Below, in pieces: positions 25,314-58,308 of a DNA stretch of 64,000 bases. The notes under the pieces are model-generated. The model worked only from the letters and a program-made list of their open reading frames with translations, was not told where the DNA came from and searched no databases. How positions within the stretch are numbered: position 1 is the first letter of the stretch; every line of letters begins with the position of its first letter. The translations under genes were made by a program, and so were the position numbers. The DNA is from a phage, in assembly GCA_017822615.1 (NCBI GenBank), contig GCA_017822615.1_4530.1. One strand, given 5' to 3'.

Positions 25314-25325
25314 GGAGTGTGAACT

Positions 25326-25562
25326 ATGGGTAAACTAATTATGACAGTGGCTATTGATTTTGATGAAGTAGATGAAAGCCTCAACCTTTCACTTTCTACT
25401 GACGTAGATGGTGAAATGGATAATATTGAAGCAGCTACTGCTCTTTTCTTCAAAAAAGCCATTGAAGTTTATGCCGAACATGCTGCAAATCAGGCAGTAG
25501 ATTACGGTGGTATCGTGCGAGCTTTAGTTCACTCTACCGAGGGCAATGACTGGGAAGACTAA
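25326..25562 (+). CDS. hypothetical protein
   Basis: ORF track. Confidence 0.55.
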   Translation: MGKLIMTVAIDFDEVDESLNLSLSTDVDGEMDNIEAATALFFKKAIEVYAEHAANQAVDYGGIVRALVHSTEGNDWED

Positions 25563-25834
25563 TGGCTTACAATTATTACTGCATTTATGCACATGAAAAG
25601 AAAAAAGGTGACACTGGGACTAACGTTTATGCGGAGTCCGAATCTCATGCAAAAGAGATTGGTGCTATCCTTTTATCACGCTGGACTGGAAATAATTACA
25701 GTGCAGAAGATATGTTTGCAGAAGTGGATTCTAGAATCCAAGAAGACAACATAACAACTACGGATATACTTATACTCCCTTTTCGGAGGGAGTATTTTAA
25801 GGAGGGATTATGCAGAGCGGAGAAGAACTTTTAG
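25562..25834 (+). CDS. hypothetical protein
   Basis: ORF track. Confidence 0.55.
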   Translation: MAYNYYCIYAHEKKKGDTGTNVYAESESHAKEIGAILLSRWTGNNYSAEDMFAEVDSRIQEDNITTTDILILPFRREYFKEGLCRAEKNF

Positions 25835-26004
25835 AGAAACAATTCTCAACGCGTCAACAAGCTTTAAGTTATATGGTTTTTCTAAGCAATCTTGATGTGA
25901 ATGAGATACTTTTACGGCGCGAAGGTAATTTCTGGAGCGTTAAATATCATGCAACAAGGTCTGTAATCTACCTGGAAGAGGCGGAATTCTCTTTGGTAGA
26001 ATGA
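25810..26004 (+). CDS. hypothetical protein
   Basis: ORF track. Confidence 0.5.
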   Translation: MQSGEELLEKQFSTRQQALSYMVFLSNLDVNEILLRREGNFWSVKYHATRSVIYLEEAEFSLVE

Positions 26005-26018
26005 TCCGAGGAGTAGTT

Positions 26019-26591
26019 ATGCGTTCAACTTTCACTGGCAAAATAAATGCTGGTTTGATTTTTACAGCAGTAAGCATTCTTAGCAAAAAGTTTAAAGTTG
26101 TTAACTTACCTGTGTGTGTCGATTTCGATCATGTTTTTGATCCTTCGAACCCCACTCGTTGCATAGTAAGGAGTAATGTTGAAAACCCAACAGAAAATCT
26201 TTTTTATGTAACAAAACCATCTCAAAGCATACTTAACCAGGTTGAGGCGAAATTGATACCTAACGGTAAATATTACTCCTTTTTACCTTGTAAGTCGGTT
26301 GAAGTAGAGAATAGCAATACTTTCGCTAATAACTTGTCTGTATTCGTTTTCTTTGTTTCACAGGAAGACGAAACAGATGAAATGGTAGCAACAGTGAGAT
26401 CACTTTATGACTCTTTAGGGGTTGTTTATAGTCAACAAGTGTGCGAAAATAATAAAGCCTGTGTAGATTTCATTATCAACGGTATTTGTGTTTGTAGAGT
26501 AGAATCTTTTTGGCTGCACGATACATATGTGACTGTAGCAGAGGTTATATCTGAACCAAGATTTAGTCATGCGGTTTCGTTAATAATTTGA
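26019..26591 (+). CDS. hypothetical protein
   Basis: ATG 26019 after gaggag (track start 26001). Confidence 0.55.
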   Translation: MRSTFTGKINAGLIFTAVSILSKKFKVVNLPVCVDFDHVFDPSNPTRCIVRSNVENPTENLFYVTKPSQSILNQVEAKLIPNGKYYSFLPCKSVEVENSNTFANNLSVFVFFVSQEDETDEMVATVRSLYDSLGVVYSQQVCENNKACVDFIINGICVCRVESFWLHDTYVTVAEVISEPRFSHAVSLII

Positions 26592-26601
26592 GGAGGAAGG
26601 A

Positions 26602-26931
26602 ATGGAAATTACTACAGAACAAGCCCTTATCGACGAGGGTCGTAAAATCTTAGAAAAGTATTTAGGGGAGATTCATAAAACCCCTGGCTATTTGGGTTGG
26701 AGAATTGTTGAAGCTGTAGATTTCCTTCCTCGTAACAGTAAAAACGTCGAAATGCGATCTCTTTTCTTATTAGTAAAGGTGGATGGGGATACGCCTTTTA
26801 AAGATGCCGCAGAACATATTGAAAAAGTTGAAGAGAAAGCTTATGCAGAATTTGCCGATCTTGTTTTAGAACAAGAGATTGAAGGAAAGGTGAATATTTT
26901 TATTTTCTTAGATTTTGAGGAGGATAAGTGA
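26602..26931 (+). CDS. hypothetical protein
   Basis: ORF track; RBS gaggagg. Confidence 0.55.
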   Translation: MEITTEQALIDEGRKILEKYLGEIHKTPGYLGWRIVEAVDFLPRNSKNVEMRSLFLLVKVDGDTPFKDAAEHIEKVEEKAYAEFADLVLEQEIEGKVNIFIFLDFEEDK

Positions 26932-27671
26932 TCATACACAGAGAAATTACTGTTAAAAGCGATCAAGATCTTTTTATAATTGGAGATCTACACGGTTGTT
27001 ATAATTTGTATGAAAAAGGAAAGGCAAAGTTAGGTATCCGAGATACAGATGTGGTTGTATCTCTAGGAGATCTTACTGACCGTGGAAAGCAAAACTTTCG
27101 TTGTGTTTTAGAATTTACTCGTAAACACAATCGCTACGCTATTCGTGGCAATCATGAAGACATGATGATTAAAGGTATGCTGGAAGGAGATCGTAGCTAC
27201 TACGAGTGTTGGTATCAAAATGGAGGATATACGGTCTTTGAAGAATGTGGTGAAGAAGGAGCTACAGCCTTAGCAATGATGACAGAAGATTTACCTGTTG
27301 TTCTCATTGTTAACTACAGAGGCATGAAACTTGCGTTTATTCATGGTGGGTATCCATCTTCTTTGGAATATCTCCCTGTAACAGATATTCCAGAATACAT
27401 TTCGAAGATGACAAAAACACAGGAAAACCGTTTTGCTGAAGCACTTATGTGGGACAGAGATATGGTAGACTGTGCTAAAGAGGGAATGAAACTTCCTGTT
27501 GTGATGGGTGTGGATTATGTGTTTCATGGACACTCTTATGTAAAAACACCTATTATCAATGCGAATCGTGTTTATATGGATACTGGATCTGTGTTCAATA
27601 ATAACTTAACATTTGCTTATTTCGATATGGACGGTGGTCTTCAATTTTATTCAACTCTTGAGGAGGATTAA
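26928..27671 (+). CDS. Ser/Thr protein phosphatase (lambda-PPase-like metallophosphatase)
   Basis: GDLHG, GDLTDRG, GNHE motifs. Confidence 0.8.
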   Translation: MIIHREITVKSDQDLFIIGDLHGCYNLYEKGKAKLGIRDTDVVVSLGDLTDRGKQNFRCVLEFTRKHNRYAIRGNHEDMMIKGMLEGDRSYYECWYQNGGYTVFEECGEEGATALAMMTEDLPVVLIVNYRGMKLAFIHGGYPSSLEYLPVTDIPEYISKMTKTQENRFAEALMWDRDMVDCAKEGMKLPVVMGVDYVFHGHSYVKTPIINANRVYMDTGSVFNNNLTFAYFDMDGGLQFYSTLEED

Positions 27672-27979
27672 TGTATAAGATTACAATTATTCAAAGTGTA
27701 GGTAATATCCGTAAAGAAGTTATCTTAGAAACAGAAGATGTTAATCTTGTTCGTGAGATTGTTCTTAAGGAAGATAACCTGCAAGCTGTAGAATCAGATG
27801 CACCGAATCTTATGGTGGATCAAGAATATTCTGAACTTCGTCGTATTTTTGAAGAGATTCAGAAGAAAGAAACACAACCGACCATAAAACCTTTTGGTCC
27901 TTATGATCCGAGCAATCCTAGCAGTCCTTGGATCATGAGAAATACGGAACCGTATACACCTTTTGAAATTACTTGTTGA
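27671..27979 (+). CDS. hypothetical protein
   Basis: ORF track. Confidence 0.55.
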   Translation: MYKITIIQSVGNIRKEVILETEDVNLVREIVLKEDNLQAVESDAPNLMVDQEYSELRRIFEEIQKKETQPTIKPFGPYDPSNPSSPWIMRNTEPYTPFEITC

Positions 27980-27986
27980 GGTGATT

Positions 27987-28568
27987 ATGGCAGAACTGTT
28001 CTATACGGGAGTTGGAAGTAGAGACATATCCGAAGAAGAGTGGGCTTTGATGGTAGGCATAGGGAAATGGCTTTCAAACCTTGGGTTTAAATTAAGGTCT
28101 GGGAAGGCAGAGGGTAGTGATTCTGCTTTTGAAACAGGTGTCCAAGAGTCTGAAAATCCTACTAACAAGGAGATTTATGTTCCTTGGGAAAATTTCAAAG
28201 GTAATCAGATTCCAGGGGATGTTATTGTTCTTGCAAAACCAGATACAATGAACTATGCTATCTCTGTGCAATGGATCAAAGATGTTCACCCAGCTTATGA
28301 AAAGCTTAAGCAGGGTGCTAGAAAATTGCACCAACGTAATGTGCATCAAGTGTTAGGTAGAGATTTGGAAAATCCTGCTCCATCCTGTTTCTTGTTGGCT
28401 TGTGCTAATACTGATAAACATGGAGATGCAAAAGGTGGAACAGCTACGGCTTGGAAGATAGCTAAAGCCAATAATGTTCCTTGTTTAAACATTCGTGGGA
28501 AAACAAAACAAGAGATTTACGATTTTCTACGACCTTTGGTAATGAGGGCAATAACAAGTGATTCCTAA
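27987..28568 (+). CDS. SLOG-superfamily (DprA/Smf- or LOG-like) Rossmann protein
   Basis: GVGSRDIS...IGKWLSNLGFKLRSGKAEGSDSAFETGV follows the GSR...SG-A-G-D-A pattern of DprA/SLOG domains. Confidence 0.45.
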   Translation: MAELFYTGVGSRDISEEEWALMVGIGKWLSNLGFKLRSGKAEGSDSAFETGVQESENPTNKEIYVPWENFKGNQIPGDVIVLAKPDTMNYAISVQWIKDVHPAYEKLKQGARKLHQRNVHQVLGRDLENPAPSCFLLACANTDKHGDAKGGTATAWKIAKANNVPCLNIRGKTKQEIYDFLRPLVMRAITSDS

Positions 28569-38988: not shown

Positions 38989-39184
38989 TTCTACCTCCTT
39001 CAATGCTTTGTGCCGTACCATCCCAAGCCATTAGAATGTTTTCCAATAGTTCACGAGGCTCTTTAAACCAAACTTCCATTTCATCAAGAATCTCGTCCGT
39101 GTCGTAAGTATAGCCTGGAACACCAAGTTCACATTTCTTAATATAACTTTCTAACCAACGATGATAAGTCTTAGCCCCATTCAT
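38981..39184 (-). CDS. hypothetical protein
   Basis: ORF track. Confidence 0.5.
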   Translation of the reverse strand: MNGAKTYHRWLESYIKKCELGVPGYTYDTDEILDEMEVWFKEPRELLENILMAWDGTAQSIEGGRNE

Positions 39185-39461
39185 ACTGTGCTACCTTTTC
39201 TTTTACCCAATCTACGCGATCTTTGTCATAATGTTGAGTGCCAAGAAAAAGACCATTGTGGAAGCTTTCAGCACCGAAAGGATAAATCGGATCTAAACCA
39301 TCTTCTTCAAATAACATTTTTAGTCTCTTTGATGTAGATTTCTTAGTCTCTGAATTGTAGCTTGTGGTTATAAGCCAGTCTTCCAAACAACGACACAAAC
39401 CTTGACGAGAGTCCCAAGGAAAAACACAATCTCCAACAGGAGCTTTTTCCGCCCATTCCAA
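39171..39461 (-). CDS. GLC/WVK paralog family member (N-terminal region in another frame)
   Basis: Carries GLCRCL, PFG and RVDWVKEK; the family N-terminal helix is encoded in the -1 frame upstream (ORF 39368..39508). Confidence 0.5.
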   Translation of the reverse strand: MEWAEKAPVGDCVFPWDSRQGLCRCLEDWLITTSYNSETKKSTSKRLKMLFEEDGLDPIYPFGAESFHNGLFLGTQHYDKDRVDWVKEKVAQYEWG

Positions 39462-39508
39462 CCAGCCTTTAAAAAGTTATACAATATGTAGTCTTCAGTG
39501 TAATACAT
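39368..39508 (-). CDS. small ORF with strong RBS; candidate frameshift partner of 39171..39461
   Basis: Reverse-strand AAGGAGG 5 nt before ATG at 39508; encodes MYYTEDYILYNFLKAGW...; track lists it from an upstream start. Confidence 0.4.
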   Translation of the reverse strand: MYYTEDYILYNFLKAGWNGRKKLLLEIVFFLGTLVKVCVVVWKTGL

Positions 39509-39559
39509 TAGCGCCTCCTTTACGTATACAATAACACCCCGCAGAACGGGGTGCAACTA

Positions 39560-40175: not shown

Positions 40176-40448
40176 TCACCCCCAAGAAATATTTATATAT
40201 CTTACAATGTTTGCACTGTCTAAAGCCATGTTTGCACCACACCCACGCTCGCGCCAATAACTAACAATACCTTCACAGATACTCTCTTGTATCTTCTTAT
40301 CACTTGGCATTTCTAGTATAAGACTTGGGTTGTGGATGTTTATGTTATAATATCCTTCCTCTGCGGCTTGAGCTACCAATTTACTTACTTTTTCAAAGTA
40401 CGGGGAATTAGTGGCATCTGCCATTGTTTTTAAGGTTTGTCTATCCAT
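40176..40448 (-). CDS. hypothetical protein
   Basis: ORF track. Confidence 0.55.
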   Translation of the reverse strand: MDRQTLKTMADATNSPYFEKVSKLVAQAAEEGYYNINIHNPSLILEMPSDKKIQESICEGIVSYWRERGCGANMALDSANIVRYINISWG

Positions 40449-40846
40449 TATTCTGCCTCATCATAGAAGAAATCCAACTCTTGTTCCAGTTGTTTAACTC
40501 GCTCCTTAACCCACTGTACACGTTTTTCATTAAACATGCAACGTTTTTCCTTACACTCTTGCTCAAAAGATTTTGCTGTGTTAAACGGGAAAGTTGTATC
40601 TAAACCAGCATTTTCAAAACTGGCTAATTGCATACCATAAACAGAATATGCTAAAGAATGATCGGCTCGAAATTCATCACTTATATACATACGTAGACCT
40701 CGACATAAGCCAACATCAGCGTAACCACTTTCTCGTGGAAAGAGACGGAGGTGTTCTAACCAATTATTATAGAAATCTAAAAGAATCCTCTTACACTTCA
40801 AATCAATTGTCATAAAAAGTTTCTCCTTCATCGAACAAGTTGGCAA
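40448..40846 (-). CDS. GLC/WVK paralog family member
   Basis: LLDFYNNWL...GLCRGL...FPFN...RVQWVKERV. Confidence 0.6.
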   Translation of the reverse strand: MPTCSMKEKLFMTIDLKCKRILLDFYNNWLEHLRLFPRESGYADVGLCRGLRMYISDEFRADHSLAYSVYGMQLASFENAGLDTTFPFNTAKSFEQECKEKRCMFNEKRVQWVKERVKQLEQELDFFYDEAE

Positions 40847-41213
40847 GATTGTTCACCGCAATTTGGGTGGAAAGAAGACAACTGTTTGCAGACACATAAG
40901 CACGGGCTATTTTGTAAACATAAGCTTTCGTATTGCAATCTTCTAAAATCGGAAGACTTTCATCGATAGCATCTATAACACTAAACATCACATCTAAAAC
41001 TTTAATTGTAAGTATTGTATCTATATCTTCGTAACCTTTTTCAATCCGACCTGAATAGAAAGTATAGTCCTCAACAGTTCGTCGTTTAAATTGGCGCATA
41101 AAATCAGAACCATCTGTAGCAGAATTGAACAAATTTTCAAAAAATACCTCCCATCCGGCAAAAAGGGCTGACAGCATGATTAAGTGATCTACAGATTCAT
41201 TTTCTTGTTTCAT
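40803..41213 (-). CDS. hypothetical protein
   Basis: ORF track. Confidence 0.55.
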   Translation of the reverse strand: MKQENESVDHLIMLSALFAGWEVFFENLFNSATDGSDFMRQFKRRTVEDYTFYSGRIEKGYEDIDTILTIKVLDVMFSVIDAIDESLPILEDCNTKAYVYKIARAYVSANSCLLSTQIAVNNLANLFDEGETFYDN

Positions 41214-41221
41214 ATCCTCTC

Positions 41222-41899
41222 CTATTTAATGTTCAATCTAGCACACAAGCGAGAAACAGTTTTAGCATCCCACTTACCACCACGTGCTGTTGCGATTTTC
41301 TTACTATTGAATTTTTCAGCAATAGTTTTGTAAGGTGTATTTAAATCTCTAAGGATCTCCAAGCGTTCACGGAATGTCTCTGCAAAAGCGTCTGCTTTAA
41401 CAGAATTGTATTCCATTTTTCCTTTTCTACGTGCAGCGGCAGTTTTAGGATTAGCACTGCCTAATAAAACACCTTTGCTTTTTGCTACAGCAAGACCCTT
41501 TTTAATACGATCAGCAATACCTCTGACTTCTTGTTCAGCCAGAACAGACAGAAGCTGTATAACCATTTTATCTGCATCTGGCATGATGGCTATCTTAACA
41601 TCGATCATTTCTAGAAGAGTTGCTACGGAGGCGTTGTTACGACCCAAGCGGTCAACTTTAGCTACCAATAAAGTTGCTCCGGTAGCTTTACACATTTCAA
41701 CCGCTTTGACCAGTTCCTTACGTTGCTTCCAATCGCCCTTACCCGAATAGTATTCAGAAAATTGACCAATAACTTCAGCATCAGGCACAGAGTCTAAGAA
41801 GTAACGGATATCGTTCTCTTGGCTCTCCATACCATATTGTGCCTCACCTTTTTTCTGTTTAGAAAGACGACTGTAAACAACAAACTTTTTCATAACCAC
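41222..41899 (-). CDS. serine recombinase (resolvase/invertase family)
   Basis: YSRLS catalytic region, YYSGKG, LLVAKVDRLGRN, EQEVRGIADRIKKG; C-terminal HTH; reverse-strand TTGACA-17-TAAAGT upstream. Confidence 0.8.
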   Translation of the reverse strand: MVMKKFVVYSRLSKQKKGEAQYGMESQENDIRYFLDSVPDAEVIGQFSEYYSGKGDWKQRKELVKAVEMCKATGATLLVAKVDRLGRNNASVATLLEMIDVKIAIMPDADKMVIQLLSVLAEQEVRGIADRIKKGLAVAKSKGVLLGSANPKTAAARRKGKMEYNSVKADAFAETFRERLEILRDLNTPYKTIAEKFNSKKIATARGGKWDAKTVSRLCARLNIK

Positions 41900-41963
41900 T
41901 CCTAAACCATTGCTGTATTCTCACTTTACAAAACGAATAAACACTTGTCAAGGTATTTATTAT

Positions 41964-42176
41964 TTACAGCCATTCTACTTTTAAGCAGTATTCTTCGACA
42001 TGTTGTTTACGCTTGTTTTTGTCTATGTAAGTGTATTCAACAAATGTCCCAAGATAATCCTTGTCCACATTGTGTTGGCTATTAATTGGACATTTAGTAC
42101 GACAAACCCGTTGCCACTGACGAAGAATTACGGCTTTGTTTTTAGGATCAAAGGGATGAGGGTAATGTGCCTTCAT
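41964..42176 (-). CDS. hypothetical protein
   Basis: ORF track. Confidence 0.5.
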   Translation of the reverse strand: MKAHYPHPFDPKNKAVILRQWQRVCRTKCPINSQHNVDKDYLGTFVEYTYIDKNKRKQHVEEYCLKVEWL

Positions 42177-42500
42177 TCACGCCTCCTGTTTTAGTCGAAA
42201 AATATTTTGAATAACGAGAGATGTATAGTTATCACTTAGTCCCATAAGTTCTACTTCCAAGTTTCGAATATCTTCCACCGTAGGAGGATATGTTGGTAAA
42301 AATGCTTGAGCATTACCAGATCCAACCTCATTGCTGTAAGCAGTTGTAAAATTGTAAGATACAAAACATGAAACACCTTTTTGTCGGTACCCGATTAATC
42401 GACGAATACACCAGATAAGAGCCAAACCTATGAGAACACCTCCTAAACCAGCTAACAAGAAAGATAAGTTCATAATAGCTTCGTTAACAACTGCTTGCAT
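42177..42500 (-). CDS. membrane protein
   Basis: Hydrophobic LSFLLAGLGGVLIGLALIWCI. Confidence 0.55.
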   Translation of the reverse strand: MQAVVNEAIMNLSFLLAGLGGVLIGLALIWCIRRLIGYRQKGVSCFVSYNFTTAYSNEVGSGNAQAFLPTYPPTVEDIRNLEVELMGLSDNYTSLVIQNIFRLKQEA

Positions 42501-42510
42501 TCTTTTCTCC

Positions 42511-42858
42511 TTAGTTATGTAAACCCAAATGTGCTACAACTTCTCTACGATAAGATAACTGCATAGCGATTTTATAGCCAGGATGAAAACCATTTACATC
42601 AATGTCATCAAACCAAACCTCAAATGAACCGTGTTTAAGAGTCATTAAGTTAATATACCATTCAATAGTATAATGATCGTTAGCAATACCTTCGATGTAA
42701 AATTCTCGACAACAGTGAGATAAATCTTCACTTGTTTCACGTTTCCAGTCTTTGATAGCACCCTTCTCTTTGGCTTTATTCAGAATGTGGATCAGGTCTT
42801 CAACTTGCATATTCTCTCCTTTAGTTCCAACTAATAATGATGTGTTTGATAATCCCAA
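42511..42858 (-). CDS. hypothetical protein
   Basis: ORF track. Confidence 0.55.
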   Translation of the reverse strand: MGLSNTSLLVGTKGENMQVEDLIHILNKAKEKGAIKDWKRETSEDLSHCCREFYIEGIANDHYTIEWYINLMTLKHGSFEVWFDDIDVNGFHPGYKIAMQLSYRREVVAHLGLHN

Positions 42859-43375
42859 AAATACTGTGCTCTGCGGTTGCCAATGTTACATCCAAACCTT
42901 TTGCACGTAGTATTGTAGCTACAACATTTGCCCCTCTTTTCTGTTCACTTATCTGTTCATAAGAAGAAGGGTTATTGCACAAACCAAAACTGGAAGGTTC
43001 AAAGTATTTTTCAAACTTCCCTTGTTCCGCACAATCTTCAATCTCTAATAGAACGGCGTCTACCATTTCAGTAAAATGGGAATTTGCTTGCAGTGCTTTA
43101 TTACGCAGTTTATCACGTAAACTTCCCGTAGATTCTTCCTGCTCTTCTGTCTGTCCATCTTCACAGAAAGGATGAAGTTCAGCCCAGTCCCAAGCATCTC
43201 CTTCTAAAGCAAATGGAGTGTTGTAATTGAAGAAAGTGCAGCGCGGATATTCCCCGTTGAAAGAATCTTTCAGCAGGATATATTTCTTACCGTTTGCATG
43301 GAAGAGTTCTCCTTTGATAACCTTACCTACAAGGATATCACTGTTAGTGGAACGGGTGCAAATAAACTTTTTCAT
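42821..43375 (-). CDS. hypothetical protein
   Basis: ORF track. Confidence 0.6.
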   Translation of the reverse strand: MKKFICTRSTNSDILVGKVIKGELFHANGKKYILLKDSFNGEYPRCTFFNYNTPFALEGDAWDWAELHPFCEDGQTEEQEESTGSLRDKLRNKALQANSHFTEMVDAVLLEIEDCAEQGKFEKYFEPSSFGLCNNPSSYEQISEQKRGANVVATILRAKGLDVTLATAEHSIFGIIKHIIISWN

Positions 43376-43429
43376 GATTTTCTCCTCTCTGTTTCGATGA
43401 GATGATTATGACAAAGACAGATCCTTCTG

Positions 43430-43756
43430 TCAACCAATTATTTCTTCTGCTACACGTTCTTTTACCCAGTTCACACGATCCATATTCAAATGACAGCGGC
43501 TTTTTTCCGCTTCTAAGGTGTACTTTCCAAAATTACTGTTGAAAGGCAACACCATAACCAAATCTTTGCGGTAGAACTGCTCATGCATTTCATCCAGTAC
43601 AGGTTCGTATCGTTCGCTTTCCCCCATATCGTAAAAATCATAGAGGTTAGAGCACAAACCTGTGCAACGGGTGAACGGTTCACCTTCAGGAGCACCAGCT
43701 TCCAACCATGCCAAATACGTGCGGTAAAATGTTAATAGTTCTTCGCTCATTTCCAC
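43430..43756 (-). CDS. GLC/WVK paralog family member
   Basis: LTFYRTYLAWLEAGAPEG...GLCSNL...LPFN...RVNWVKERV. Confidence 0.65.
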   Translation of the reverse strand: MEMSEELLTFYRTYLAWLEAGAPEGEPFTRCTGLCSNLYDFYDMGESERYEPVLDEMHEQFYRKDLVMVLPFNSNFGKYTLEAEKSRCHLNMDRVNWVKERVAEEIIG

Positions 43757-43964: not shown

Positions 43965-44192
43965 TTATTCCTCCATCTCAAACCATTCAGGGAACACTTT
44001 GCGGAAGACCCGCGTGTTTTCTAAGAGAAATGCCAACTCTTTTTCCAAATCTGCGTTCCAACCGTTTATTTTAACACGGATTGCCAATGCACTTGCACGG
44101 CGACTTAATTCTTGACAGATTGGATCACGCAGAACTATTGAATCATAAAACTGACAAACAGCTTCAAGTTCATACCAGTTATAATCCGACAT
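43965..44192 (-). CDS. hypothetical protein
   Basis: ORF track. Confidence 0.55.
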   Translation of the reverse strand: MSDYNWYELEAVCQFYDSIVLRDPICQELSRRASALAIRVKINGWNADLEKELAFLLENTRVFRKVFPEWFEMEE

Positions 44193-44518
44193 TATTCATC
44201 CTCCTCTGCAATACGATTTCTTACCCAATTAATTCTGTCCACGTTCAGGTGACAGGCATCTGCATCTGACTCTAAGACATATGCATCGTAGTTCTCATTG
44301 AAAGGGAGTTCTTGATTCAACCCTTTATGGTAAAACTGTGCGTGCATTTCATCTGACAAGGTTGTTATAATGGGGTTGTAATTACCTCTGTGCACATAAT
44401 CGAACAAGTTGGCACACAAACCACAATCCCGCCGAAAAGGTTTACCATCAGGAGCACCAACATCAATCCATGCTAGATAAATTTTATAAAACTCCATCAA
44501 CCTTGCGCTTGTTTTCAT
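44192..44518 (-). CDS. GLC/WVK paralog family member
   Basis: MEFYKIYLAWIDVGAPDG...GLCANL...LPFN...RINWVRNRI. Confidence 0.65.
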   Translation of the reverse strand: MKTSARLMEFYKIYLAWIDVGAPDGKPFRRDCGLCANLFDYVHRGNYNPIITTLSDEMHAQFYHKGLNQELPFNENYDAYVLESDADACHLNVDRINWVRNRIAEEDE

Positions 44519-51834: not shown

Positions 51835-52173
51835 GACAATCTCCTCTCATCGTTAGCCATCTTTCATGGCAATCATCAATCACCAACATCATACGATCAA
51901 TCTTAAGGAATTACAATCGATTTATCATAGGGGATTCCTATCAATTATCCCATATATACCGATTATTTTTGACACCCCGCTCTTGTATAAAAAGTAACCC
52001 AAAATATCTACGGGGAGAGATTATTTCGGGACACCCTGTTTCATGGCAATCATGGCAAGAATATCTAATAGAATCAATATCATATGGCAAAAATCATGGC
52101 GCATACGTAAGAAGTGCTTAACGCGAATTTTCGGGCCGTCAGGTCCACGCAGCGACAATTCCCAAATATCATG

Positions 52174-52196
52174 CGAATGAGAATAATTATCATTCG
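52174..52196. promoter_or_regulatory. 23-bp near-perfect palindrome, Fur-box-like operator
   Basis: cgaatgagaataattatcattcg; resembles the GATAATGATAATCATTATC-type AT-rich dyad. Confidence 0.4.
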
Positions 52197-52353
52197 TATT
52201 CAATGACTTATGCAAGGCTCATGCCAACATAGCGACAAGGTGGGCCACCTGATTATAAATCACACAAACACTTATTTATCAATGGCTTGGCAACTTCATC
52301 ATATGACGGAACAATGTCAACTAATCCCGCTCATGACAGACGGACTATTATTT

Positions 52354-52374
52354 ATATGAGAATGATTATTATTT
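52354..52374. promoter_or_regulatory. iteron-like site (ATGAGAATGATT motif)
   Basis: atatgagaatgattattattt shares the ATGAGAATGATT core with the iterons at 63829-63944. Confidence 0.35.
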
Positions 52375-53089
52375 AAACGTTTATTAACATATAAACTAAA
52401 ATAAATCAAGAATTTTCTGATTTTATTTACGTTTAAGAGAACTTGCTCAACATATCGCTACGCGATAGTATTCGCCCCCAAAAGATTAGCCTTTATTTTC
52501 TTGTATGTTTATACACTATGTGCACACTATGCAACCTGTCGCTATTCGCTCATGTTGCTACGTGCAATTATTCATCTTGCTAATGATCTCATCTTGTAAT
52601 TACCACAATGATTATTGTTATTGCGCTAATGTTATGATCTTGGTAATTACATATAATGCTAATAATAAGCCAGCGCAATAAGTGTAAGCGTCATTACGCT
52701 TGCAATTATTGCAAGCTACGCAGTAACAAGAAATAACCGTCACCGATGGTTATGATTGTTGGGGTGTAGTTGGCTTATTATTAGCTCGCTATGTGTCCGG
52801 CATAGCGTGCTAATGATGACTCTGTGAATGATTCGTTTTGTAATGATTTCATTCATGCACTATTTTGCTAATAGTTATTATTTTAATGGTTTCGTTTGTT
52901 ATTGTTCGTTAGTTGGTTGTTTTGTCGTGTTATCGTTATCTTGCTTAGTATTCATCATGGTTTGATTGTTTGTCGTTATCAATCATCTTGCTATTATTCC
53001 TTTGATTATGATTAGTTTGCTTATTGTTTTAGGTTGTTGGTTAGTTAGTTGTTGCGAACTATTATCAACATTATAATTATGCGCTTATA

Positions 53090-53130
53090 TTGCATAGATA
53101 ATCATGGGTAGATGATAATGGTTATCATTG
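53090..53130 (+). promoter_or_regulatory. promoter-like element overlapped by a Fur-box-like site
   Basis: TTGCAT 53090-53095, about 17 nt, GATAAT; gatgataatggttatcattg 53111-53130 matches about 14/19 of the Fur consensus. Confidence 0.35.
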
Positions 53131-53151
53131 CACTAGAAAGGAGGTAAAAGG

Positions 53152-53250
53152 GTGTTTTTGATGGTTTGTTGTTGGTTGTTGATCGATTTTAACCGCTATA
53201 AATGGCTCTCTAACAGCCTGTTACCCTGGGAGGTATGGTTATTCGTTTAA
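53152..53250 (+). CDS. candidate small hydrophobic Trp/Cys-rich peptide (32 aa)
   Basis: AAGGAGG 53138-53144 placed 7 nt before GTG 53152; peptide MFLMVCCWLLIDFNRYKWLSNSLLPWEVWLFV; not in track. Confidence 0.25.
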   Translation: MFLMVCCWLLIDFNRYKWLSNSLLPWEVWLFV

Positions 53251-53333
53251 TGGTTGATTAGCTCGATACCGCGATTTATTCAATTTTGTTCTGTGTCGGT
53301 TTTTCATAGGCGAAAGCTATCAACATTGTTCGG

Positions 53334-53364
53334 GCAAAAAGAAAGGGCGCTTGGTGCGCCCCTT
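53334..53364 (-). terminator. rho-independent terminator (aagggcgc hairpin family)
   Basis: Hairpin aagggcgc-ttggt-gcgcccctt; reverse strand followed by ctttcttttt; ends the early block. Confidence 0.65.
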
Positions 53365-53377
53365 GTTTTGTTGTCAA

Positions 53378-54639: not shown

Positions 54640-54695
54640 GGGAAACATTCCCGCCCTACGTGATAAATAATAATGTAAGCGTGATCCGGTGTCAA
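54640..54695 (-). promoter_or_regulatory. early promoter + 5' GC-hairpin cassette
   Basis: Reverse strand TTGACA (54690-54695), 17 nt, TATTAT (54667-54672), TAGGGCGG, hairpin gggaa-aca-ttccc 54640-54652. Confidence 0.6.
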
Positions 54696-55007
54696 TAGGT
54701 GGGATTGTAAAGATTTGATAGTTTATCTCTTTGATGTTTTGTTGTTTGATAGGTGTTAGCTATCAATATATAGCGGGGTCTTCCGGTGATTATCTTCCCC
54801 TGCTCCCAGGTGCCGCCCGTTCAATAAGTATAACAAAAAACAGGACTATTGCAAGCCCTGTTTATTTATCTTAAAACCAGTTGCCAACCGTTTCTAATAG
54901 GTCGCTGACTACCAGGACAACATTGATCAGCACATGTTCAACCATGAAGGGAATAAGCGCCAGCGTTGCTACTACGATCCCCATTGTGATGATTACCTTT
55001 CTCATGG

Positions 55008-55292
55008 TTAGCGGCTTACGTAAGCTTTACCGTTTACGGTCATCGGTATGGCCTCAAGGTCTGGATCTTCCTTAAGGTCGCGTGCAAGCTCACCGCACCG
55101 GATACCCTCGAATCCGTAGTACTCTGTTGTGCCATCCTGGAAAGTTTTAGCGGCAAGGCATAGGCGATAATTAACACCGATCCGGTTCACTGCGTTGATA
55201 TCGGTTAACGTGATGGATTCAGGCAACTCATTAGCCAGTACAGGCGCGTTAATACCAACAACCAGGGCAACTACTGCGATCATCTTTTTCAT
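55008..55292 (-). CDS. secreted early protein (signal peptide)
   Basis: MKKMIAVVALVVGINAPVLA signal-peptide-like N-terminus. Confidence 0.6.
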   Translation of the reverse strand: MKKMIAVVALVVGINAPVLANELPESITLTDINAVNRIGVNYRLCLAAKTFQDGTTEYYGFEGIRCGELARDLKEDPDLEAIPMTVNGKAYVSR

Positions 55293-55322
55293 GCTTTCTA
55301 GCCTCTTCCTATTGCGTTTAAT

Positions 55323-55338
55323 GGGGCGTTACCGCCCC
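55323..55338 (-). promoter_or_regulatory. intercistronic GC hairpin (no promoter)
   Basis: ggggcg-ttac-cgcccc between the stop at 55348 and the next RBS. Confidence 0.5.
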
Positions 55339-55347
55339 GCTTATGGT

Positions 55348-55584
55348 TTATTGATTGATGTTATAATGAAAGTTATTTTCTTCAATAGCTTTTAAAATAA
55401 AAGCTGTGATCGCTTTCGTGTCTACTTGTTCGAACGTATCAGAATAGCACCAATAATGATCATCCCCTACTTTCGGCGGGTAAACCTGGACAAGGAGATC
55501 GCCACCTGGTTGATCTATAAGCTCAACATGCAAGCCGGATGATTCAGCGGTTTTAACGGCGTTTAATACTGTTGCAATACTCAT
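55348..55584 (-). CDS. hypothetical early protein
   Basis: ORF track. Confidence 0.6.
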   Translation of the reverse strand: MSIATVLNAVKTAESSGLHVELIDQPGGDLLVQVYPPKVGDDHYWCYSDTFEQVDTKAITAFILKAIEENNFHYNINQ

Positions 55585-55604
55585 AATCTTTTCCTTTCTG
55601 ATGT

Positions 55605-55620
55605 GGGGCGTTGCCGCCCC
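55605..55620 (-). promoter_or_regulatory. intercistronic GC hairpin (no promoter)
   Basis: ggggcg-ttgc-cgcccc, 8 nt after the upstream stop and about 20 nt before the next RBS. Confidence 0.5.
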
Positions 55621-55628
55621 TTTGTTGA

Positions 55629-55928
55629 TTAGATCGCTGTTTCCAGTAGTTCGGCTAACGTCTTACCGCCTGATAGTTGGTCTAACGTTTGCTCTTCTGG
55701 CAAGAAATTAGCTGATATTAAACCGACTTGATTCCCTTTGTGCCAGTTAGCCTGGCGGATGATTCCATCCTTTAAAGATTTTACCGCCATTGTGCAACCG
55801 TCGCCAAATGATTCATTTTTATGATCCATTACTTCATAAGCGCCCAGCTTGCTGCTGTTAGGCACCATTAACGCGAATACATCACCAACAACCAGTTTTT
55901 CTACGGTAACAATAGCGATAGTTTCCAT
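55629..55928 (-). CDS. hypothetical early protein
   Basis: ORF track. Confidence 0.6.
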   Translation of the reverse strand: METIAIVTVEKLVVGDVFALMVPNSSKLGAYEVMDHKNESFGDGCTMAVKSLKDGIIRQANWHKGNQVGLISANFLPEEQTLDQLSGGKTLAELLETAI

Positions 55929-55947
55929 TTTACTTTCCTCATTATCG

Positions 55948-56003
55948 GCGGCACCATTGCCGCCCTACGTGGTAAATATTAGCACACTGGCGATCTGTGT
56001 CAA
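55948..56003 (-). promoter_or_regulatory. early promoter + 5' GC-hairpin cassette
   Basis: Reverse strand TTGACA (55998-56003); hairpin gcggca-ccat-tgccgc 55948-55963; 35-nt segment identical to 61609-61642. Confidence 0.6.
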
Positions 56004-56009
56004 TACTTT

Positions 56010-56396
56010 TTATTCAATATAAATCAAATTATCTTCACCAATGTAAGCCGACACGTCCGGCATGAATTTAGCGGCATTTGTTAGGCGGTTCGCCGTGTTA
56101 GTGGTGTATATTTCAGGGCGATCCCAAAAGCCTACGCCGTGACTGTTACGGGTAAAATGTAAATCATTCCCGATCTGGTTGGCTGTTGCGCCGTCGCTCA
56201 TTGCCTCAGAGATAGCGGCAAGATTAGCATTAATAAAGGCTGTTACATCCTGGGCGATCCGTTGATCCGCGCTAGGAGAAAAATCATAATCGTCTAAGTT
56301 ATCAATAAAATTACCTTCATGATCCCTTGCTGATTCAGCAAAAATAAAGGCTTCTTTATAGCCGTTGATGATTTCGTTAATGATTTCTGTTTTCAT
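56010..56396 (-). CDS. hypothetical early protein
   Basis: ORF track. Confidence 0.6.
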   Translation of the reverse strand: MKTEIINEIINGYKEAFIFAESARDHEGNFIDNLDDYDFSPSADQRIAQDVTAFINANLAAISEAMSDGATANQIGNDLHFTRNSHGVGFWDRPEIYTTNTANRLTNAAKFMPDVSAYIGEDNLIYIE

Positions 56397-56608
56397 GCTG
56401 TACGCTCGACAATAATAATAGTTTGCGGGATCTCGTTTTCTACTACTAACAAGGCTTTTTTCTGTGTGATAGATATTTTAACACGTTGTAAAGTAGCGGT
56501 GAAATCTTTCATTTCATTATGCGCGGACTTCGTGCAATGCCAGATCTCAGGCTTACCAACTTGTAAGCCGCGTAAAAATTCCGTTTTGCCTGTTTTGTTC
56601 GTGATCAT
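56393..56608 (-). CDS. hypothetical early protein
   Basis: ATG at 56608 after aaggtga; track GTG start 56617. Confidence 0.55.
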   Translation of the reverse strand: MITNKTGKTEFLRGLQVGKPEIWHCTKSAHNEMKDFTATLQRVKISITQKKALLVVENEIPQTIIIVERTA

Positions 56609-56618
56609 TTGTTTCACC

Positions 56619-56723
56619 TTAACCGATACCGTGGGAAGATAGGATCATGTTAGCCATAGTTGCAACCACTCCAACCGATAACGCCAGGCCCACTATTACA
56701 ACCGTGAAAATTTTCTCTAACAT
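56619..56723 (-). CDS. small membrane peptide (34 aa)
   Basis: Reverse-strand ATG after gagggtag; hydrophobic MLEKIFTVVIVGLALSVGVVA; not in track. Confidence 0.4.
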   Translation of the reverse strand: MLEKIFTVVIVGLALSVGVVATMANMILSSHGIG

Positions 56724-56741
56724 GATTCTACCCTCATTAAT

Positions 56742-56803
56742 GGGCGTTGCACCATTGCCCCGCCCTACGAAATACATTCTATCAGATAACAAATTATCGT
56801 CAA
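56742..56803 (-). promoter_or_regulatory. early promoter + 5' GC-hairpin cassette
   Basis: Reverse strand TTGACG (56798-56803), 16 nt, TAGAAT (56776-56781), TAGGGCGG, hairpin region 56742-56765. Confidence 0.55.
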
Positions 56804-56946
56804 GATTTATTTTTTACTTCCCAAACGGAAAATTCACTGCCTATCGGGATCATTCTTTTAATCTTGTTTGCTGCTGCTACCAGATCCACGGCTTGCACTG
56901 TAATAATATAACCAATTGTCGGGGCTGTTGCGTTGAAAGTTTTCAT
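56800..56946 (-). CDS. small hypothetical protein (48 aa)
   Basis: Reverse-strand ATG after aaggataat; stop overlaps the next -35; not in track. Confidence 0.4.
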   Translation of the reverse strand: MKTFNATAPTIGYIITVQAVDLVAAANKIKRMIPIGSEFSVWEVKNKS

Positions 56947-56990
56947 TATATTATCCTTTAATACAGGCGGGATTAATCCCGCCTTATTAA

Positions 56991-57161
56991 TTACTCTTCA
57001 TCGTCGCCGTTATAGTATTCAATGCCGTTTTCATCGGTTACAGTGATGTTAACGCCACCGATAGCGACACGATCACGGGCAAACGTCATAGCTTCATTTA
57101 AATCTTCGGACCAAAAAATATTGTGACCTTTGCGCGATACATAAAACATAGTCGGGGTCAT
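56991..57161 (-). CDS. hypothetical early protein
   Basis: ATG at 57161 (MTPTMFYV...); track TTG start 57245 lies inside the promoter. Confidence 0.55.
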   Translation of the reverse strand: MTPTMFYVSRKGHNIFWSEDLNEAMTFARDRVAIGGVNITVTDENGIEYYNGDDEE

Positions 57162-57184
57162 GATTTGTTTCTCTTCTGTTTTGA

Positions 57185-57245
57185 GCGGTGGACCATTCCG
57201 CCGCCCTATGTGATAAACTTTACTACGTTGTTTGCCTACTGTCAA
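57185..57245 (-). promoter_or_regulatory. early promoter + 5' GC-hairpin cassette
   Basis: Reverse strand TTGACA (57240-57245), 17 nt, TAAAGT (57217-57222), TAGGGCGG, hairpin 57185-57204 with one mismatch. Confidence 0.6.
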
Positions 57246-57246
57246 A

Positions 57247-57531
57247 TTATTTTTTAATGTTTTGCCCTACAAAATTGATCACTTCCTTAAGCTGTTTCTC
57301 TGTCATGATCGTACCTGGTAATTCCTCTTTAATTTCTTCCGGTAAATAAATATTACCGCGCCAGGTTAACAAACAACCGTTTTGATCTTCGCAGATAGAA
57401 TAAGAGAAGATCCACTCATTATCATTTTCAAGCTCCCAAAAACACAAAAAGTCTTCTTTCCCTAAGTTTTCAACGGTTAAGCATAATCCGCGACGTGCTG
57501 CATAATTAGTTAGGCTTTTTGTGATTTTCAT
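57247..57531 (-). CDS. hypothetical early protein
   Basis: ORF track. Confidence 0.6.
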   Translation of the reverse strand: MKITKSLTNYAARRGLCLTVENLGKEDFLCFWELENDNEWIFSYSICEDQNGCLLTWRGNIYLPEEIKEELPGTIMTEKQLKEVINFVGQNIKK

Positions 57532-57552
57532 GATTTTTCTCTCTTCTTGTGA

Positions 57553-57607
57553 GCGGCATCATTGCCGCCCTACGCAATAACTATAACACAATATAAAACC
57601 GGATCAA
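57553..57607 (-). promoter_or_regulatory. early promoter + 5' GC-hairpin cassette
   Basis: Reverse strand TTGATC (57602-57607), 16 nt, TATAGT (57580-57585), hairpin gcggca-tcat-tgccgc 57553-57568. Confidence 0.6.
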
Positions 57608-57816
57608 CCTTTATTTTTCCACGGTGTCAGCTTGTTAATCATTGGTGATAAATAACGTTTACCAACGTAAAACAGTACGCCAACTGATGCAACGGCGGCG
57701 ATCTCATGTAAGGAGGAAGGCCGCGCGGTGTCATAATAGGTACCAATAATAGCAATAGCGGCGACGGCGGTGATGTCAATAATGATTTTTTCTTGTTTTG
57801 CTGTGATAGTGGTCAT
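57604..57816 (-). CDS. small membrane protein
   Basis: Hydrophobic ITAVAAIAIIGTYY and AAVASVGVLFYV. Confidence 0.55.
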   Translation of the reverse strand: MTTITAKQEKIIIDITAVAAIAIIGTYYDTARPSSLHEIAAVASVGVLFYVGKRYLSPMINKLTPWKNKG

Positions 57817-57838
57817 AATGTTTTCTCTTCTGTGTGGT

Positions 57839-57894
57839 CGGGAACTATTCCCGCCCTATGTGATACATCTTAGTAAATCTGGTTATAATGTCAA
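57839..57894 (-). promoter_or_regulatory. early promoter + 5' GC-hairpin cassette
   Basis: Reverse strand TTGACA (57889-57894), 16 nt, TAAGAT (57867-57872), hairpin cgggaa-cta-ttcccg 57839-57853. Confidence 0.65.
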
Positions 57895-57900
57895 CCATTT

Positions 57901-58086: not shown

Positions 58087-58105
58087 TTGTGTTTATCCTC
58101 TAGAT

Positions 58106-58136: not shown

Positions 58137-58141
58137 TTATG

Positions 58142-58287: not shown

Positions 58288-58308
58288 TTTTGTTTCCTCT
58301 TTGTATGA

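What the first reader, a model, noticed from the sequence alone, without database searches (positions are those of the whole stretch)
41222..41899. Small serine recombinase inside the small-gene block
A resolvase/invertase-type serine recombinase with its own promoter sits among unknown small genes rather than next to tail-fibre or integration functions. It could drive inversion of a nearby segment (phase-variable expression), resolve replication intermediates, or mark a mobile insertion. I could not find flanking inverted repeats by eye.
Basis: partly seen in the sequence, partly recalled or inferred. Interest (0 to 1): 0.5.

Follow-up and report, generated by a model that had tools for sequence, protein, structure and literature searches.

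The report
Conserved small serine recombinase, lytic coliphage
The gene is a real and apparently active site-specific DNA recombinase that every phAPEC8/phi92-type lytic E. coli phage carries; it is already annotated in public genomes, shows no sign of flipping a DNA segment or of being a recent mobile insertion, and its DNA target is still unknown.

Summary
Window 41222-41893 (-) encodes a 223-aa serine recombinase. All catalytic residues are intact, and a sigma-70-type promoter sits in the 64-bp gap upstream.

The window is a Phapecoctavirus, a phAPEC8-like lytic myovirus of about 150 kb. The protein is at least 99% identical in 63 public genomes, several of which already annotate it as resolvase, invertase or serine recombinase. 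It is 52-75% identical across the rest of the subfamily Stephanstirmvirinae. Against phAPEC8 it shows 13 synonymous and 0 non-synonymous codon changes.

- No inverted repeat exceeds chance within 5 kb either side, or anywhere in a complete genome.
- The surrounding 25 kb is collinear, on one strand, in the 56 most complete of the 60 records listed.
- The context is fixed within the genus, so this is not a recent insertion.

The gene with its promoter did move once between genera. The family is very large. Its full-length relatives are the only recombinase annotated on three 5.8-6.5-kb plasmids that I read in full.

My best guess, at moderate confidence, is a resolvase-type housekeeping role on circular or multimeric phage DNA. 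No target site was found. This is ordinary and already known.

The parts
41222..41893 (-). Coding sequence of the serine recombinase (223 aa plus stop). The ORF finder's GTG at 41899 lies two codons upstream of the likely ATG start.
   Evidence: Same CDS as annotated 'resolvase' in MH160766. At least 99% identical protein in 63 phage records.
41579..41893 (-). Catalytic domain (aa 1-105). The nucleophile Ser11 is encoded at 41861-41863. Y7, R9, S11, Q25, R58, D81, R82 and R85 are invariant in the family.
   Evidence: Alignments A1 and A2. Alignment to Tn3 and gamma-delta resolvase places D81/R82/R85 on D67/R68/R71. AlphaFold2 model, mean pLDDT 88.8. Foldseek matches to Sin, gamma-delta and TP901-1 catalytic domains.
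41477..41569 (-). Long E-helix (aa 109-139), the dimer/tetramer interface helix of serine recombinases.
   Evidence: Model secondary structure H109-139. The motif AEQEVRGIADR aligns with Tn3 AQAERRRILER.
41237..41449 (-). C-terminal four-helix domain (aa 149-219), presumed to bind DNA. It carries the motif IA..LN....ATARGGKW....V.RL, which resembles the start of the 'recombinase domain' of large serine recombinases.
   Evidence: Weak PF07508 hit at residues 187-216. Some family members pass PF07508. The family profile aligns to Bxb1 integrase up to residue 214. Bxb1 is the top Foldseek match, with 259 aligned columns.
41923..41951 (-). Sigma-70-type promoter TTGACA-17 nt-TAAAGT in the 64-bp gap upstream of the gene.
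   Evidence: An equivalent -35/-10 pair lies upstream of the orthologues in phi92, FKP3, Tr1 and phiWec179, and of the distant homologues in Shewanella 1/4 and ICP1.
41899..41903 (-). Ribosome-binding site AGGAG, 5 nt before the ATG.
   Evidence: Read directly from the sequence.
25763..26018 (+). The empty syntenic site. In Justusliebigvirus (phi92, FKP3) the recombinase with its promoter lies between the gp054 and gp052/gp051 homologues. Here the window has 256 bp and no recombinase.
   Evidence: tblastn of phi92 gp058-gp047 against the window places the gp054 homologue at 25562-25762 and the gp051 homologue at 26019-26582. phi92 and FKP3 contexts are.

Best explanation
This is a catalytically competent small serine recombinase and a core gene of the phAPEC8/phi92 group of lytic myoviruses. 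It is probably transcribed early by host RNA polymerase from its own sigma-70 promoter.

Most likely mechanism (inferred): the protein binds as dimers to a short site on phage DNA. It then carries out conservative cut-rotate-rejoin recombination between two directly repeated copies of that site. This would be a resolvase-type housekeeping reaction that keeps the replicating genome as unit circles, either by resolving multimers or by cyclising the genome from its 329-bp terminal repeats. It is not an inversion switch and not a transposition or integration step.

Shown here: gene, fold, intact active site, strong purifying selection, subfamily-wide conservation, promoter motif, absence of inverted repeats and of inversion polymorphism, and absence of a prophage form.

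Inferred: enzymatic activity, early timing, the phage genome as substrate, and a deletion/resolution outcome. The site itself was not found.
For: - Domain and active site: PF00239 at E=5e-18. Y7, R9, S11, Q25, R58, D81, R82 and R85 are invariant in 63 diverse homologues. The confident model shows a catalytic domain, an E-helix and a helical C-terminal domain.
- Selection: 13 synonymous and 0 non-synonymous codon differences against phAPEC8, whereas several neighbouring genes show many non-synonymous changes, e.g. 13:9 and 14:17. At least 99% identity in 63 records. 52-75% identity in phiWec179, Tr1, phi92 and the Klebsiella phages.
- Link to DNA metabolism: in phi92/FKP3 and in the distant Shewanella phage 1/4 the gene lies in one co-oriented block with PhoH, lysozyme and a DprA-like gene.
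- Family context: 3,738 50%-identity clusters at E<=1e-30; most of the 150 best listed are about 215-240 aa and match the profile over its full length. tblastn found homologues in 110 plasmid records, 92 of them non-mobilizable. In the three small plasmids read in full (5.8-6.5 kb), which otherwise carry replication and partition-type genes, this is the only recombinase annotated. On plasmids such a gene with a cis site is a multimer-resolution module (PMC6312765). The Synechococcus plasmid has a perfect 16-nt dyad just upstream of the gene.
- Substrate geometry: virion DNA has 329-bp direct terminal repeats, mapped to window 52119-52447. Any site inside them is therefore present twice in direct orientation.
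Against: - No recombination site was identified. Nothing is conserved upstream of the gene across lineages except the promoter. There is no res-like cluster of repeated 8-mers. No sequence similar to the upstream region recurs convincingly.
- There is room for only 64 bp upstream, whereas classical res sites are about 100-120 bp and adjacent to the gene.
- Phages that package from concatemers have no obvious need for multimer resolution.
- The sister subfamily Vequintavirinae also has short terminal repeats (514 bp in KPP-1), yet no homologue turned up in it. A terminal-repeat genome therefore does not require this enzyme.
- The plasmid argument is guilt by association at 35-40% identity, and no member of this subfamily that I could find has been tested.
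Confidence: 0.4

Rival explanations
1. The recombinase acts on DNA other than the phage genome: host chromosome, resident prophages, satellites or plasmids. It would be an early takeover or counter-defence function, for example excising or inverting a host element.
For: No target site could be found in the phage genome. The gene is apparently expressed early from a host-type promoter. In ICP1 the distant homologue lies in a stretch of genes that carry no earlier 'GP' names, and only a minority of the phage records matched are Vibrio phages. This suggests an accessory gene of the arms-race type there.
Against: No candidate host site is known. PADLOC gives no link to defence systems. The gene is conserved across phages of E. 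coli, Klebsiella and Citrobacter, and across marine Vibrio and Shewanella phages, so the target would have to be very widespread. Co-orientation with phage DNA-metabolism genes in phi92 and Shewanella 1/4 points to the phage's own DNA.
Confidence: 0.2
2. It is a selfish or vestigial cassette: a promoter plus a recombinase that moves or once moved, or the remnant of a compact integrase. It would have no role in lytic growth.
For: The gene with its promoter occupies different loci and strands in Phapecoctavirus and Justusliebigvirus. Immediate neighbours differ between the lineages compared, apart from phi92 and FKP3, which share theirs. Distant relatives sit at prophage ends or beside a large serine integrase. 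The Schickermooser copy is disrupted by many small indels.
Against: 13 synonymous and 0 non-synonymous changes, with every catalytic residue kept. The gene is present in essentially all Stephanstirmvirinae records matched. There are no flanking repeats. The locus is syntenic in the phiWec179 group and, on one flanking gene, in Tr1. The region has no copy in 5,426 complete E. coli genomes. The Schickermooser indel cluster looks like a local assembly fault.
Confidence: 0.12
3. It is a DNA-binding regulator or architectural protein that no longer recombines.
For: No pair of sites was found. Resolvases commonly repress their own promoters. Some orthologues (FKP3, Tr1) have small dyads within the promoter.
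Against: The nucleophilic serine and the Arg/Asp residues of the active site are invariant across 63 homologues down to about 30% identity. That is not expected if catalysis were dispensable.
Confidence: 0.08
4. It is a DNA invertase driving a phase-variable segment, as the first reader suggested (Gin/Cin/Hin-like).
For: The catalytic domain's best sequence match in the PDB is Gin invertase (66.8 bits with the family profile). PHROG 125 is named 'DNA invertase'.
Against: No inverted repeat exceeds chance within 5 kb either side. The complete Ro121lw genome has no separated inverted-repeat pair at E<0.01. 25 kb is collinear in the 56 most complete of the 60 records listed. The gene is not near tail-fibre genes. 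No HTH_7-type DNA-binding domain was detected. No promoter-bracketing inverted repeat is conserved in orthologues.
Confidence: 0.04

Closest known systems
Tn3 / gamma-delta resolvase and plasmid multimer-resolution serine recombinases (Sin, beta, RP4 ParA)
   Same: The catalytic domain has the same active-site residues (Y6/R8/S10/R45/D67/R68/R71 correspond to Y7/R9/S11/R58/D81/R82/R85) and a long E-helix. It is a small protein with one C-terminal DNA-binding domain. Family members occur as the only annotated recombinase on three tiny plasmids read in full, which is the niche of multimer-resolution modules.
   Different: The C-terminal domain has four helices and is about 75 aa, with a G-x-W motif like that of large serine recombinases. 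It is not the 45-aa HTH of resolvases. No adjacent multi-subsite res was found and there is no transposase. The host replicon is a strictly lytic phage with terminal repeats. No NCBIfam model reaches its cut-off (best: YneB, 32.5 bits against 175).
Phage DNA invertases Gin (Mu), Cin (P1), Hin, Pin
   Same: Phage-borne small serine recombinases. Gin is the best PDB sequence match to the family profile. Public records often call the gene 'DNA invertase'.
   Different: No inverted crossover sites, no invertible segment and no tail-fibre neighbourhood. The C-terminal domain is different.
Large serine recombinases (Bxb1, phiC31, TP901-1 integrases; XisF, CcrB)
   Same: The region after the E-helix aligns with the start of their recombinase domain (PF07508 weak hit; Bxb1 alignment to residue 214; top Foldseek match). 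XisF and CcrB appear among the weak NCBIfam hits.
   Different: 223 aa instead of 450-600. The rest of the recombinase domain, the zinc-ribbon domain and the coiled coil are absent. There is no lysogeny and no prophage copy in E. coli genomes.
Cre/loxP of phage P1 (functional analogy only)
   Same: A phage-encoded site-specific recombinase whose known roles are cyclising terminally redundant DNA and resolving dimers. That is the role proposed here. (Established knowledge; not tested here.)
   Different: Cre is a tyrosine recombinase of a temperate plasmid-prophage, and loxP is known. Here the chemistry is serine-type, the phage is lytic, and no site is known.

Membership tests
Serine recombinase superfamily (resolvase/invertase catalytic domain, PF00239) | Significant match to the catalytic-domain model | tested here: met
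   PF00239 at E=5.2e-18, 66 bits against a 23.3-bit cut-off, residues 5-142. Matches to Tn3, gamma-delta, Sin and Gin structures.
Serine recombinase superfamily (resolvase/invertase catalytic domain, PF00239) | Nucleophilic serine and the conserved Arg/Asp cluster (Tn3 numbering R8, S10, D67, R68, R71) | tested here: met
   R9, S11, D81, R82 and R85 are invariant in 63 homologues. Correspondence established by the pairwise alignments.
Serine recombinase superfamily (resolvase/invertase catalytic domain, PF00239) | Recombination activity on a defined pair of sites | not testable with these tools
   Needs biochemistry or genetics. No site was identified in silico.
DNA invertases (Gin/Hin/Cin/Pin) | Two crossover sites in inverted orientation flanking an invertible segment, one next to the gene | tested here: not met
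   Best inverted repeat within 5 kb either side equals chance. No separated inverted pair in the complete genome at E<0.01.
DNA invertases (Gin/Hin/Cin/Pin) | Both orientations of the segment seen among isolates or reads | tested here: not met
   25 kb around the gene is collinear on one strand in the 56 most complete of the 60 records listed. Reads were not available, and regions outside the window were compared only by self-similarity of one genome.
DNA invertases (Gin/Hin/Cin/Pin) | Hin-type C-terminal HTH (HTH_7) and a Fis-dependent enhancer | tested here: inconclusive
   No HTH_7 match in Pfam at E<=0.1, and the C-terminal domain is a different four-helix domain. The enhancer was not tested.
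Tn3-family cointegrate resolvases | A res site with several resolvase-binding subsites adjacent to the gene, and an associated transposase | tested here: not met
   Only 64 bp of intergenic DNA lies upstream and it holds the promoter. No repeated half-sites were found. Neighbouring genes are small and unknown, with no transposase.
Large serine recombinases (phage integrases) | Full recombinase domain, zinc-ribbon domain and coiled coil; 400 aa or more | tested here: not met
   223 aa. Only a weak partial PF07508 match, at profile positions 19-48 of 102. The model ends after four helices.
Large serine recombinases (phage integrases) | An integrated (prophage) form of the element | tested here: not met
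   No match of window 40500-43500 in 5,426 complete E. coli genomes.
Uncharacterised subfamily of ~220-aa serine recombinases with a mini 'recombinase-domain' C-terminus (plasmids and phages) | Full-length similarity including the C-terminal domain, and length about 215-240 aa | tested here: met
   Most of the 150 best representatives are about 215-240 aa and match profile positions 1-219; 3,738 clusters reach E<=1e-30. Plasmid homologues cover 95-99% of the protein.
Plasmid/phage multimer-resolution module | A cis-acting resolution site on the same replicon, recombined only in direct repeat | not testable with these tools
   No site was found. The role is inferred from the contexts of relatives.

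The most novel reading that the evidence does not exclude
A strictly lytic phage with terminal repeats uses a serine recombinase in the way P1 uses Cre. In one version it cyclises the incoming linear genome at a site in or near the 329-bp terminal repeat; the conserved, unique dyad at 52403-52423 is one candidate. In another version it keeps a circular episome monomeric during a so far unrecognised carrier or plasmid-like state of phages regarded as purely virulent.
Probability: 0.12. Interest if true: 0.6.

Novelty: already known. Interest (0 to 1): 0.25.

Why it matters
These phages (phAPEC8, ESCO5/13, phi92 relatives) are used and proposed for therapy. Site-specific recombinase genes are routinely screened for as a warning sign of lysogeny. 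Published genome notes disagree on this gene: one reports no recombinase-coding gene, others call it a resolvase.

The evidence here shows a conserved, selected core enzyme. It has no prophage form in 5,426 E. coli genomes and no invertible segment. This argues that it is not a lysogeny or phase-variation marker.

The open question is why lytic phages keep such an enzyme. It is real, but of modest scope, and it needs experiments rather than more sequence analysis.

Tried and rejected
- Inverted repeats near the gene and genome-wide: none above chance. The only hit is a 47-bp AT-rich palindrome in an origin-like region outside the window.
- The 38-nt, 74% inverted pair 40193/42329 and the 20-nt pair 41863/42001 that bracket the gene or its promoter. 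Both arms lie in coding DNA, the scores are at chance level, and no equivalent exists in phi92, FKP3, Tr1 or phiWec179. Rejected.
- Recurrence of the upstream region elsewhere: only two exact 13-mers (13579 and 52831), each at E=0.07, with no similarity beyond them. Rejected.
- res-like clusters of repeated 8-mers: none of note.
- The AT-rich repeats in the terminal repeat looked like possible recombinase sites. They match the Fur-box consensus instead (consensus from memory), and the GAATGA motif is absent from the recombinase promoter. Not linked to the recombinase.
- The odd multi-place matches of phages WPEC1/2/4/6: WPEC1 is rearranged at the genome terminus and looks like an assembly artefact. 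Not followed further.
- Context of the P. aeruginosa homologue, to decide between integrase and invertase: uninformative.
- Literature: no experimental work on this gene or on close relatives.
- Rfam, tRNA scan and PADLOC: nothing.

Full report
**What is there.** The minus-strand ORF at 41222..41899 is real. The ORF finder starts it at a GTG. The likely start is the ATG at 41893, five bases after AGGAG. That gives 223 aa and matches the CDS annotated 'resolvase' in Escherichia phage vB_EcoM-Ro121lw.

- Pfam places the resolvase catalytic domain on residues 5-142 (E=5e-18, 66 bits against a 23.3-bit cut-off). It also gives a weak, sub-threshold match of residues 187-216 to the 'Recombinase' domain of large serine recombinases.
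- PHROGs files the protein under phrog_125, 'DNA invertase'.
- A 63-sequence family alignment keeps Y7, R9, S11, Q25, R58, D81, R82 and R85 invariant.
- In pairwise alignments these residues fall on the Tn3/gamma-delta active-site residues R8, S10, R45, D67, R68 and R71.
- An AlphaFold2 model (mean pLDDT 88.8) shows the catalytic domain, a long E-helix (109-139) and a four-helix C-terminal domain (149-219).
- Foldseek returns the Sin, gamma-delta and TP901-1 catalytic domains. Its top match is the large serine recombinase Bxb1, over 259 columns.
- The family profile aligns to Bxb1 as far as residue 214, and its best-scoring PDB sequence is Gin invertase.

The protein is therefore a small serine recombinase with an intact active site. 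Its DNA-binding end looks like a cut-down version of the large-serine-recombinase 'recombinase domain'.

**Where it sits.** The window is a Phapecoctavirus, a phAPEC8-like lytic myovirus of about 150 kb in the subfamily Stephanstirmvirinae. It is 99.9% identical to Ro121lw over the 3.5 kb around the gene.

- The physical ends of the virion DNA are known for Schickermooser (328-bp terminal repeat; PMC6563267) and for phi92 (343-bp repeat annotated).
- The Schickermooser ends map to window 52119-52447. The window therefore spans the joined genome ends.
- The recombinase is about the 34th gene of the leftward block of small genes that starts at the left end.
- Ten neighbouring genes have no informative Pfam or PHROG assignment. 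The upstream one is DUF7202.
- The 64-bp gap upstream holds TTGACA-17-TAAAGT.
- A -35/-10 pair lies at the same place before the orthologues in phi92, FKP3, Tr1 and phiWec179, although their flanking genes differ. The same holds for the distant homologues in Shewanella 1/4 and ICP1.

**Conservation.**
- The protein is at least 99% identical in 63 phage records.
- It is about 74% identical in the phiWec179 group, 67% in Citrobacter phage Tr1, 57% in phi92-like phages and 52-55% in the Klebsiella relatives.
- It is 30-38% identical in Vibrio and Shewanella myoviruses of about 130-150 kb, and in some ICP1 isolates.
- Against phAPEC8 the gene has 13 synonymous and 0 non-synonymous codon changes. 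Several neighbours show many non-synonymous changes, e.g. 13:9 and 14:17.
- Only one genome carries a disrupted copy. Schickermooser has 11 small indels packed into 370 bp over the promoter and the 5' half of the gene, against 0-2 gaps per kb elsewhere. This looks like a local assembly problem, but it cannot be settled without reads.

*Inversion.*
- The best ungapped inverted repeat within 5 kb either side scores 14, against 13.7 +/- 1.1 in simulations.
- A self-comparison of the complete Ro121lw genome finds no separated inverted pair at E<0.01.
- The 25 kb around the gene lies in a single place on a single strand in the 56 most complete of the 60 records listed.
- The gene is far from the tail-fibre genes.

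*Mobile insertion.*
- Within the genus the context is fixed.
- The neighbourhood is syntenic in the phiWec179 group. In Tr1 a single flanking gene is conserved in position.
- The region has no counterpart in 5,426 complete E. coli genomes.
- The gene has nevertheless moved once. In phi92 and FKP3 it lies, with its promoter, between the gp054 and gp052/gp051 homologues, in a co-oriented block that runs from PhoH to a DprA-like gene. The window has that block on the plus strand at 23648-28541, with 256 bp in place of the recombinase.
- The distant Shewanella phage 1/4 has the phi92-type arrangement: PhoH, ligase, recombinase, one small ORF, then the DprA-like gene. That arrangement is probably ancestral.

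**What the wider family says.**
- A profile search of 1.84 billion representative proteins finds 3,738 clusters at E<=1e-30. Most of the 150 best listed are about 215-240 aa and match the profile over its full length. This is an abundant, poorly named subfamily and not a phage oddity.
- No NCBIfam model comes near its cut-off.
- Full-length homologues of 35-40% identity lie on 110 plasmid records, 92 of them non-mobilizable.
- In the three plasmids of 5.8-6.5 kb that I read in full (Marinovum, Synechococcus, Klebsiella), this is the only recombinase annotated. The other annotated genes are replication or partition-type genes and hypothetical proteins.
- On plasmids a recombinase gene with a cis site is a multimer-resolution module (PMC6312765).
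- The Synechococcus plasmid has a perfect 16-nt dyad directly upstream of the gene.
- Other distant relatives lie at prophage ends or beside a large serine integrase.

**Best explanation and its limits.**
- I conclude with high confidence (about 0.85) that this is an active, selected core recombinase of the phage and that it is neither an invertase nor a recent insertion.
- I favour, at about 0.4, a resolvase-type role on the phage's own circular or multimeric DNA.
- The virion's direct terminal repeats would supply any site inside them in direct repeat, so a Cre/loxP-like cyclisation is geometrically possible.
- The weakness is plain: I found no site. Nothing but the promoter is conserved upstream. 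No repeated half-sites were found, and nothing similar to the upstream region recurs.
- Concatemer-packaging phages have no obvious need for resolution.
- The sister subfamily Vequintavirinae has short terminal repeats but no homologue.
- Rivals that remain open: action on host or satellite DNA (0.2), a selfish or vestigial cassette (0.12), a non-recombining regulator (0.08) and an invertase (0.04).

**Comparison with the known, and novelty.**
- The protein works like, and passes the tests for, the serine recombinase superfamily.
- It fails the defining tests for DNA invertases, Tn3-type resolvases and large serine integrases (see the membership table).
- It belongs to a large uncharacterised subfamily.
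- The identical protein is already deposited and variously annotated as 'resolvase', 'DNA invertase', 'serine recombinase' or 'putative ABC transporter ATP-binding protein'.
- Published notes either overlook it or guess that it keeps concatemers as single genomes.
- Nothing here is new in kind. The unanswered question is its substrate.

**Verdict.** The feature is already known, and interest is about 0.25.

Noticed in passing
window 52119-52447 (terminal repeat) within the non-coding stretch 51850-53370: The window spans the joined physical ends of the phage genome. The 329-bp direct terminal repeat of Schickermooser maps here, inside about 1.5 kb of non-coding DNA. Blocks of this DNA are 69-80% identical even in the other genus, Justusliebigvirus.
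   Followed up: partly
window 52356-52373, 52177-52194 and 53112-53129: Direct repeats ATGAGAATRATTATYATT lie in and near the terminal repeat and resemble the E. coli Fur box. The phi92 copy, GTAAATGATAATCATTATC, matches the 19-bp consensus at 17 positions; the window copies match at 14 of 19 (consensus recalled from memory). GAATGA/TCATTC is five-fold enriched in the terminal region. This may tie events at the genome end to host iron status.
   Followed up: partly
window 52403-52423: The dyad AAATCAGAAAATTCTTGATTT lies 24 bp inside the left genome end and is unique in the window (expected 0.01 matches by chance). It is conserved in phi92, muut and phiWec186, and phi92 carries a compensatory change that keeps the symmetry. 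It is a candidate terminase or recombinase site.
   Followed up: partly
window 54641-63171: At least 12 direct copies of an intergenic unit lie in front of the small minus-strand genes of the right-end region. Read on the gene strand, the unit is TTGACA, 16-17 nt, TAAGAT-like -10, then a G+C-rich hairpin such as GGGCGGCAATGGTGCCGCTC. The hairpin stems vary in a compensatory way. The units recall the promoter-early-stem-loop repeats of T4-type phages. Rfam has no match.
   Followed up: partly
window 39171-39509, 40448-40813, 43430-43750, 44192-44518 (and a repeat copy near 47783): A paralogous family of early proteins of roughly 106-121 aa shares a motif ending in ...R..WVKERV. Two members tested match phrog_2510 (unknown function). 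Several more copies occur in phiWec179 and Tr1.
   Followed up: partly
window 41964-42176 (-): The gene just upstream of the recombinase is a DUF7202 protein. Its DNA is about 80% identical to the tk.3 region of T-even phages (RB32, AR1, p000v and others). This indicates exchange of small early genes between unrelated lytic phage groups.
   Followed up: no
L007 (Schickermooser MK373788) 11149-11519, homologous to window about 41660-42050: Eleven small indels are packed into 370 bp covering the end of the DUF7202 gene, the recombinase promoter and the first 240 nt of the recombinase. The rest of the aligned genome has 0-2 gaps per kb. This is either an assembly fault or read heterogeneity at this very locus.
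   Followed up: partly
L022:7170-7300, L023:4840-4995, L002:4870-5005: In the distant homologues of Shewanella phage 1/4, Vibrio phage 277E43-1 and ICP1 2017_DRC_48, the recombinase promoter lies inside an inverted repeat. The 3' arm of the repeat is followed by TTTTTAT(T)ATG and in two cases contains the Shine-Dalgarno sequence. Read-through transcripts would be terminated or would have their ribosome site masked, whereas transcripts from the gene's own promoter would not.
   Followed up: no
L019:29560-29800 (Ro121lw 55010-55250; about 1.6 kb outside the window): A 47-bp AT-rich palindrome is flanked by GTACT-type repeats in opposite orientation, in the divergent intergenic region before the tRNA cluster. 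It is the only self-complementary hit in the genome and looks like a replication origin.
   Followed up: no
L018 (WPEC1 PV659873) and window 17878-26605: The WPEC1/2/4/6 records (155-161 kb) give 9-10 separate matching places. WPEC1 joins the left-end gene block directly to helicase and ribonucleotide-reductase genes without the terminal region. At this position it also lacks 8.7 kb that the window has. Probably assembly artefacts.
   Followed up: partly
Ro121lw 93809-94063 (outside the window): A perfect 128-bp tandem duplication lies between two genes of the tail-fibre region.
   Followed up: no
public records matched: In several GenBank records the product name 'putative (methionine) ABC transporter ATP-binding protein' appears under the match; in at least one (OR062529) it is attached to the recombinase CDS itself. 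Five 'Campylobacter phage' records are phAPEC8- or phi92-like coliphage genomes.
   Followed up: no
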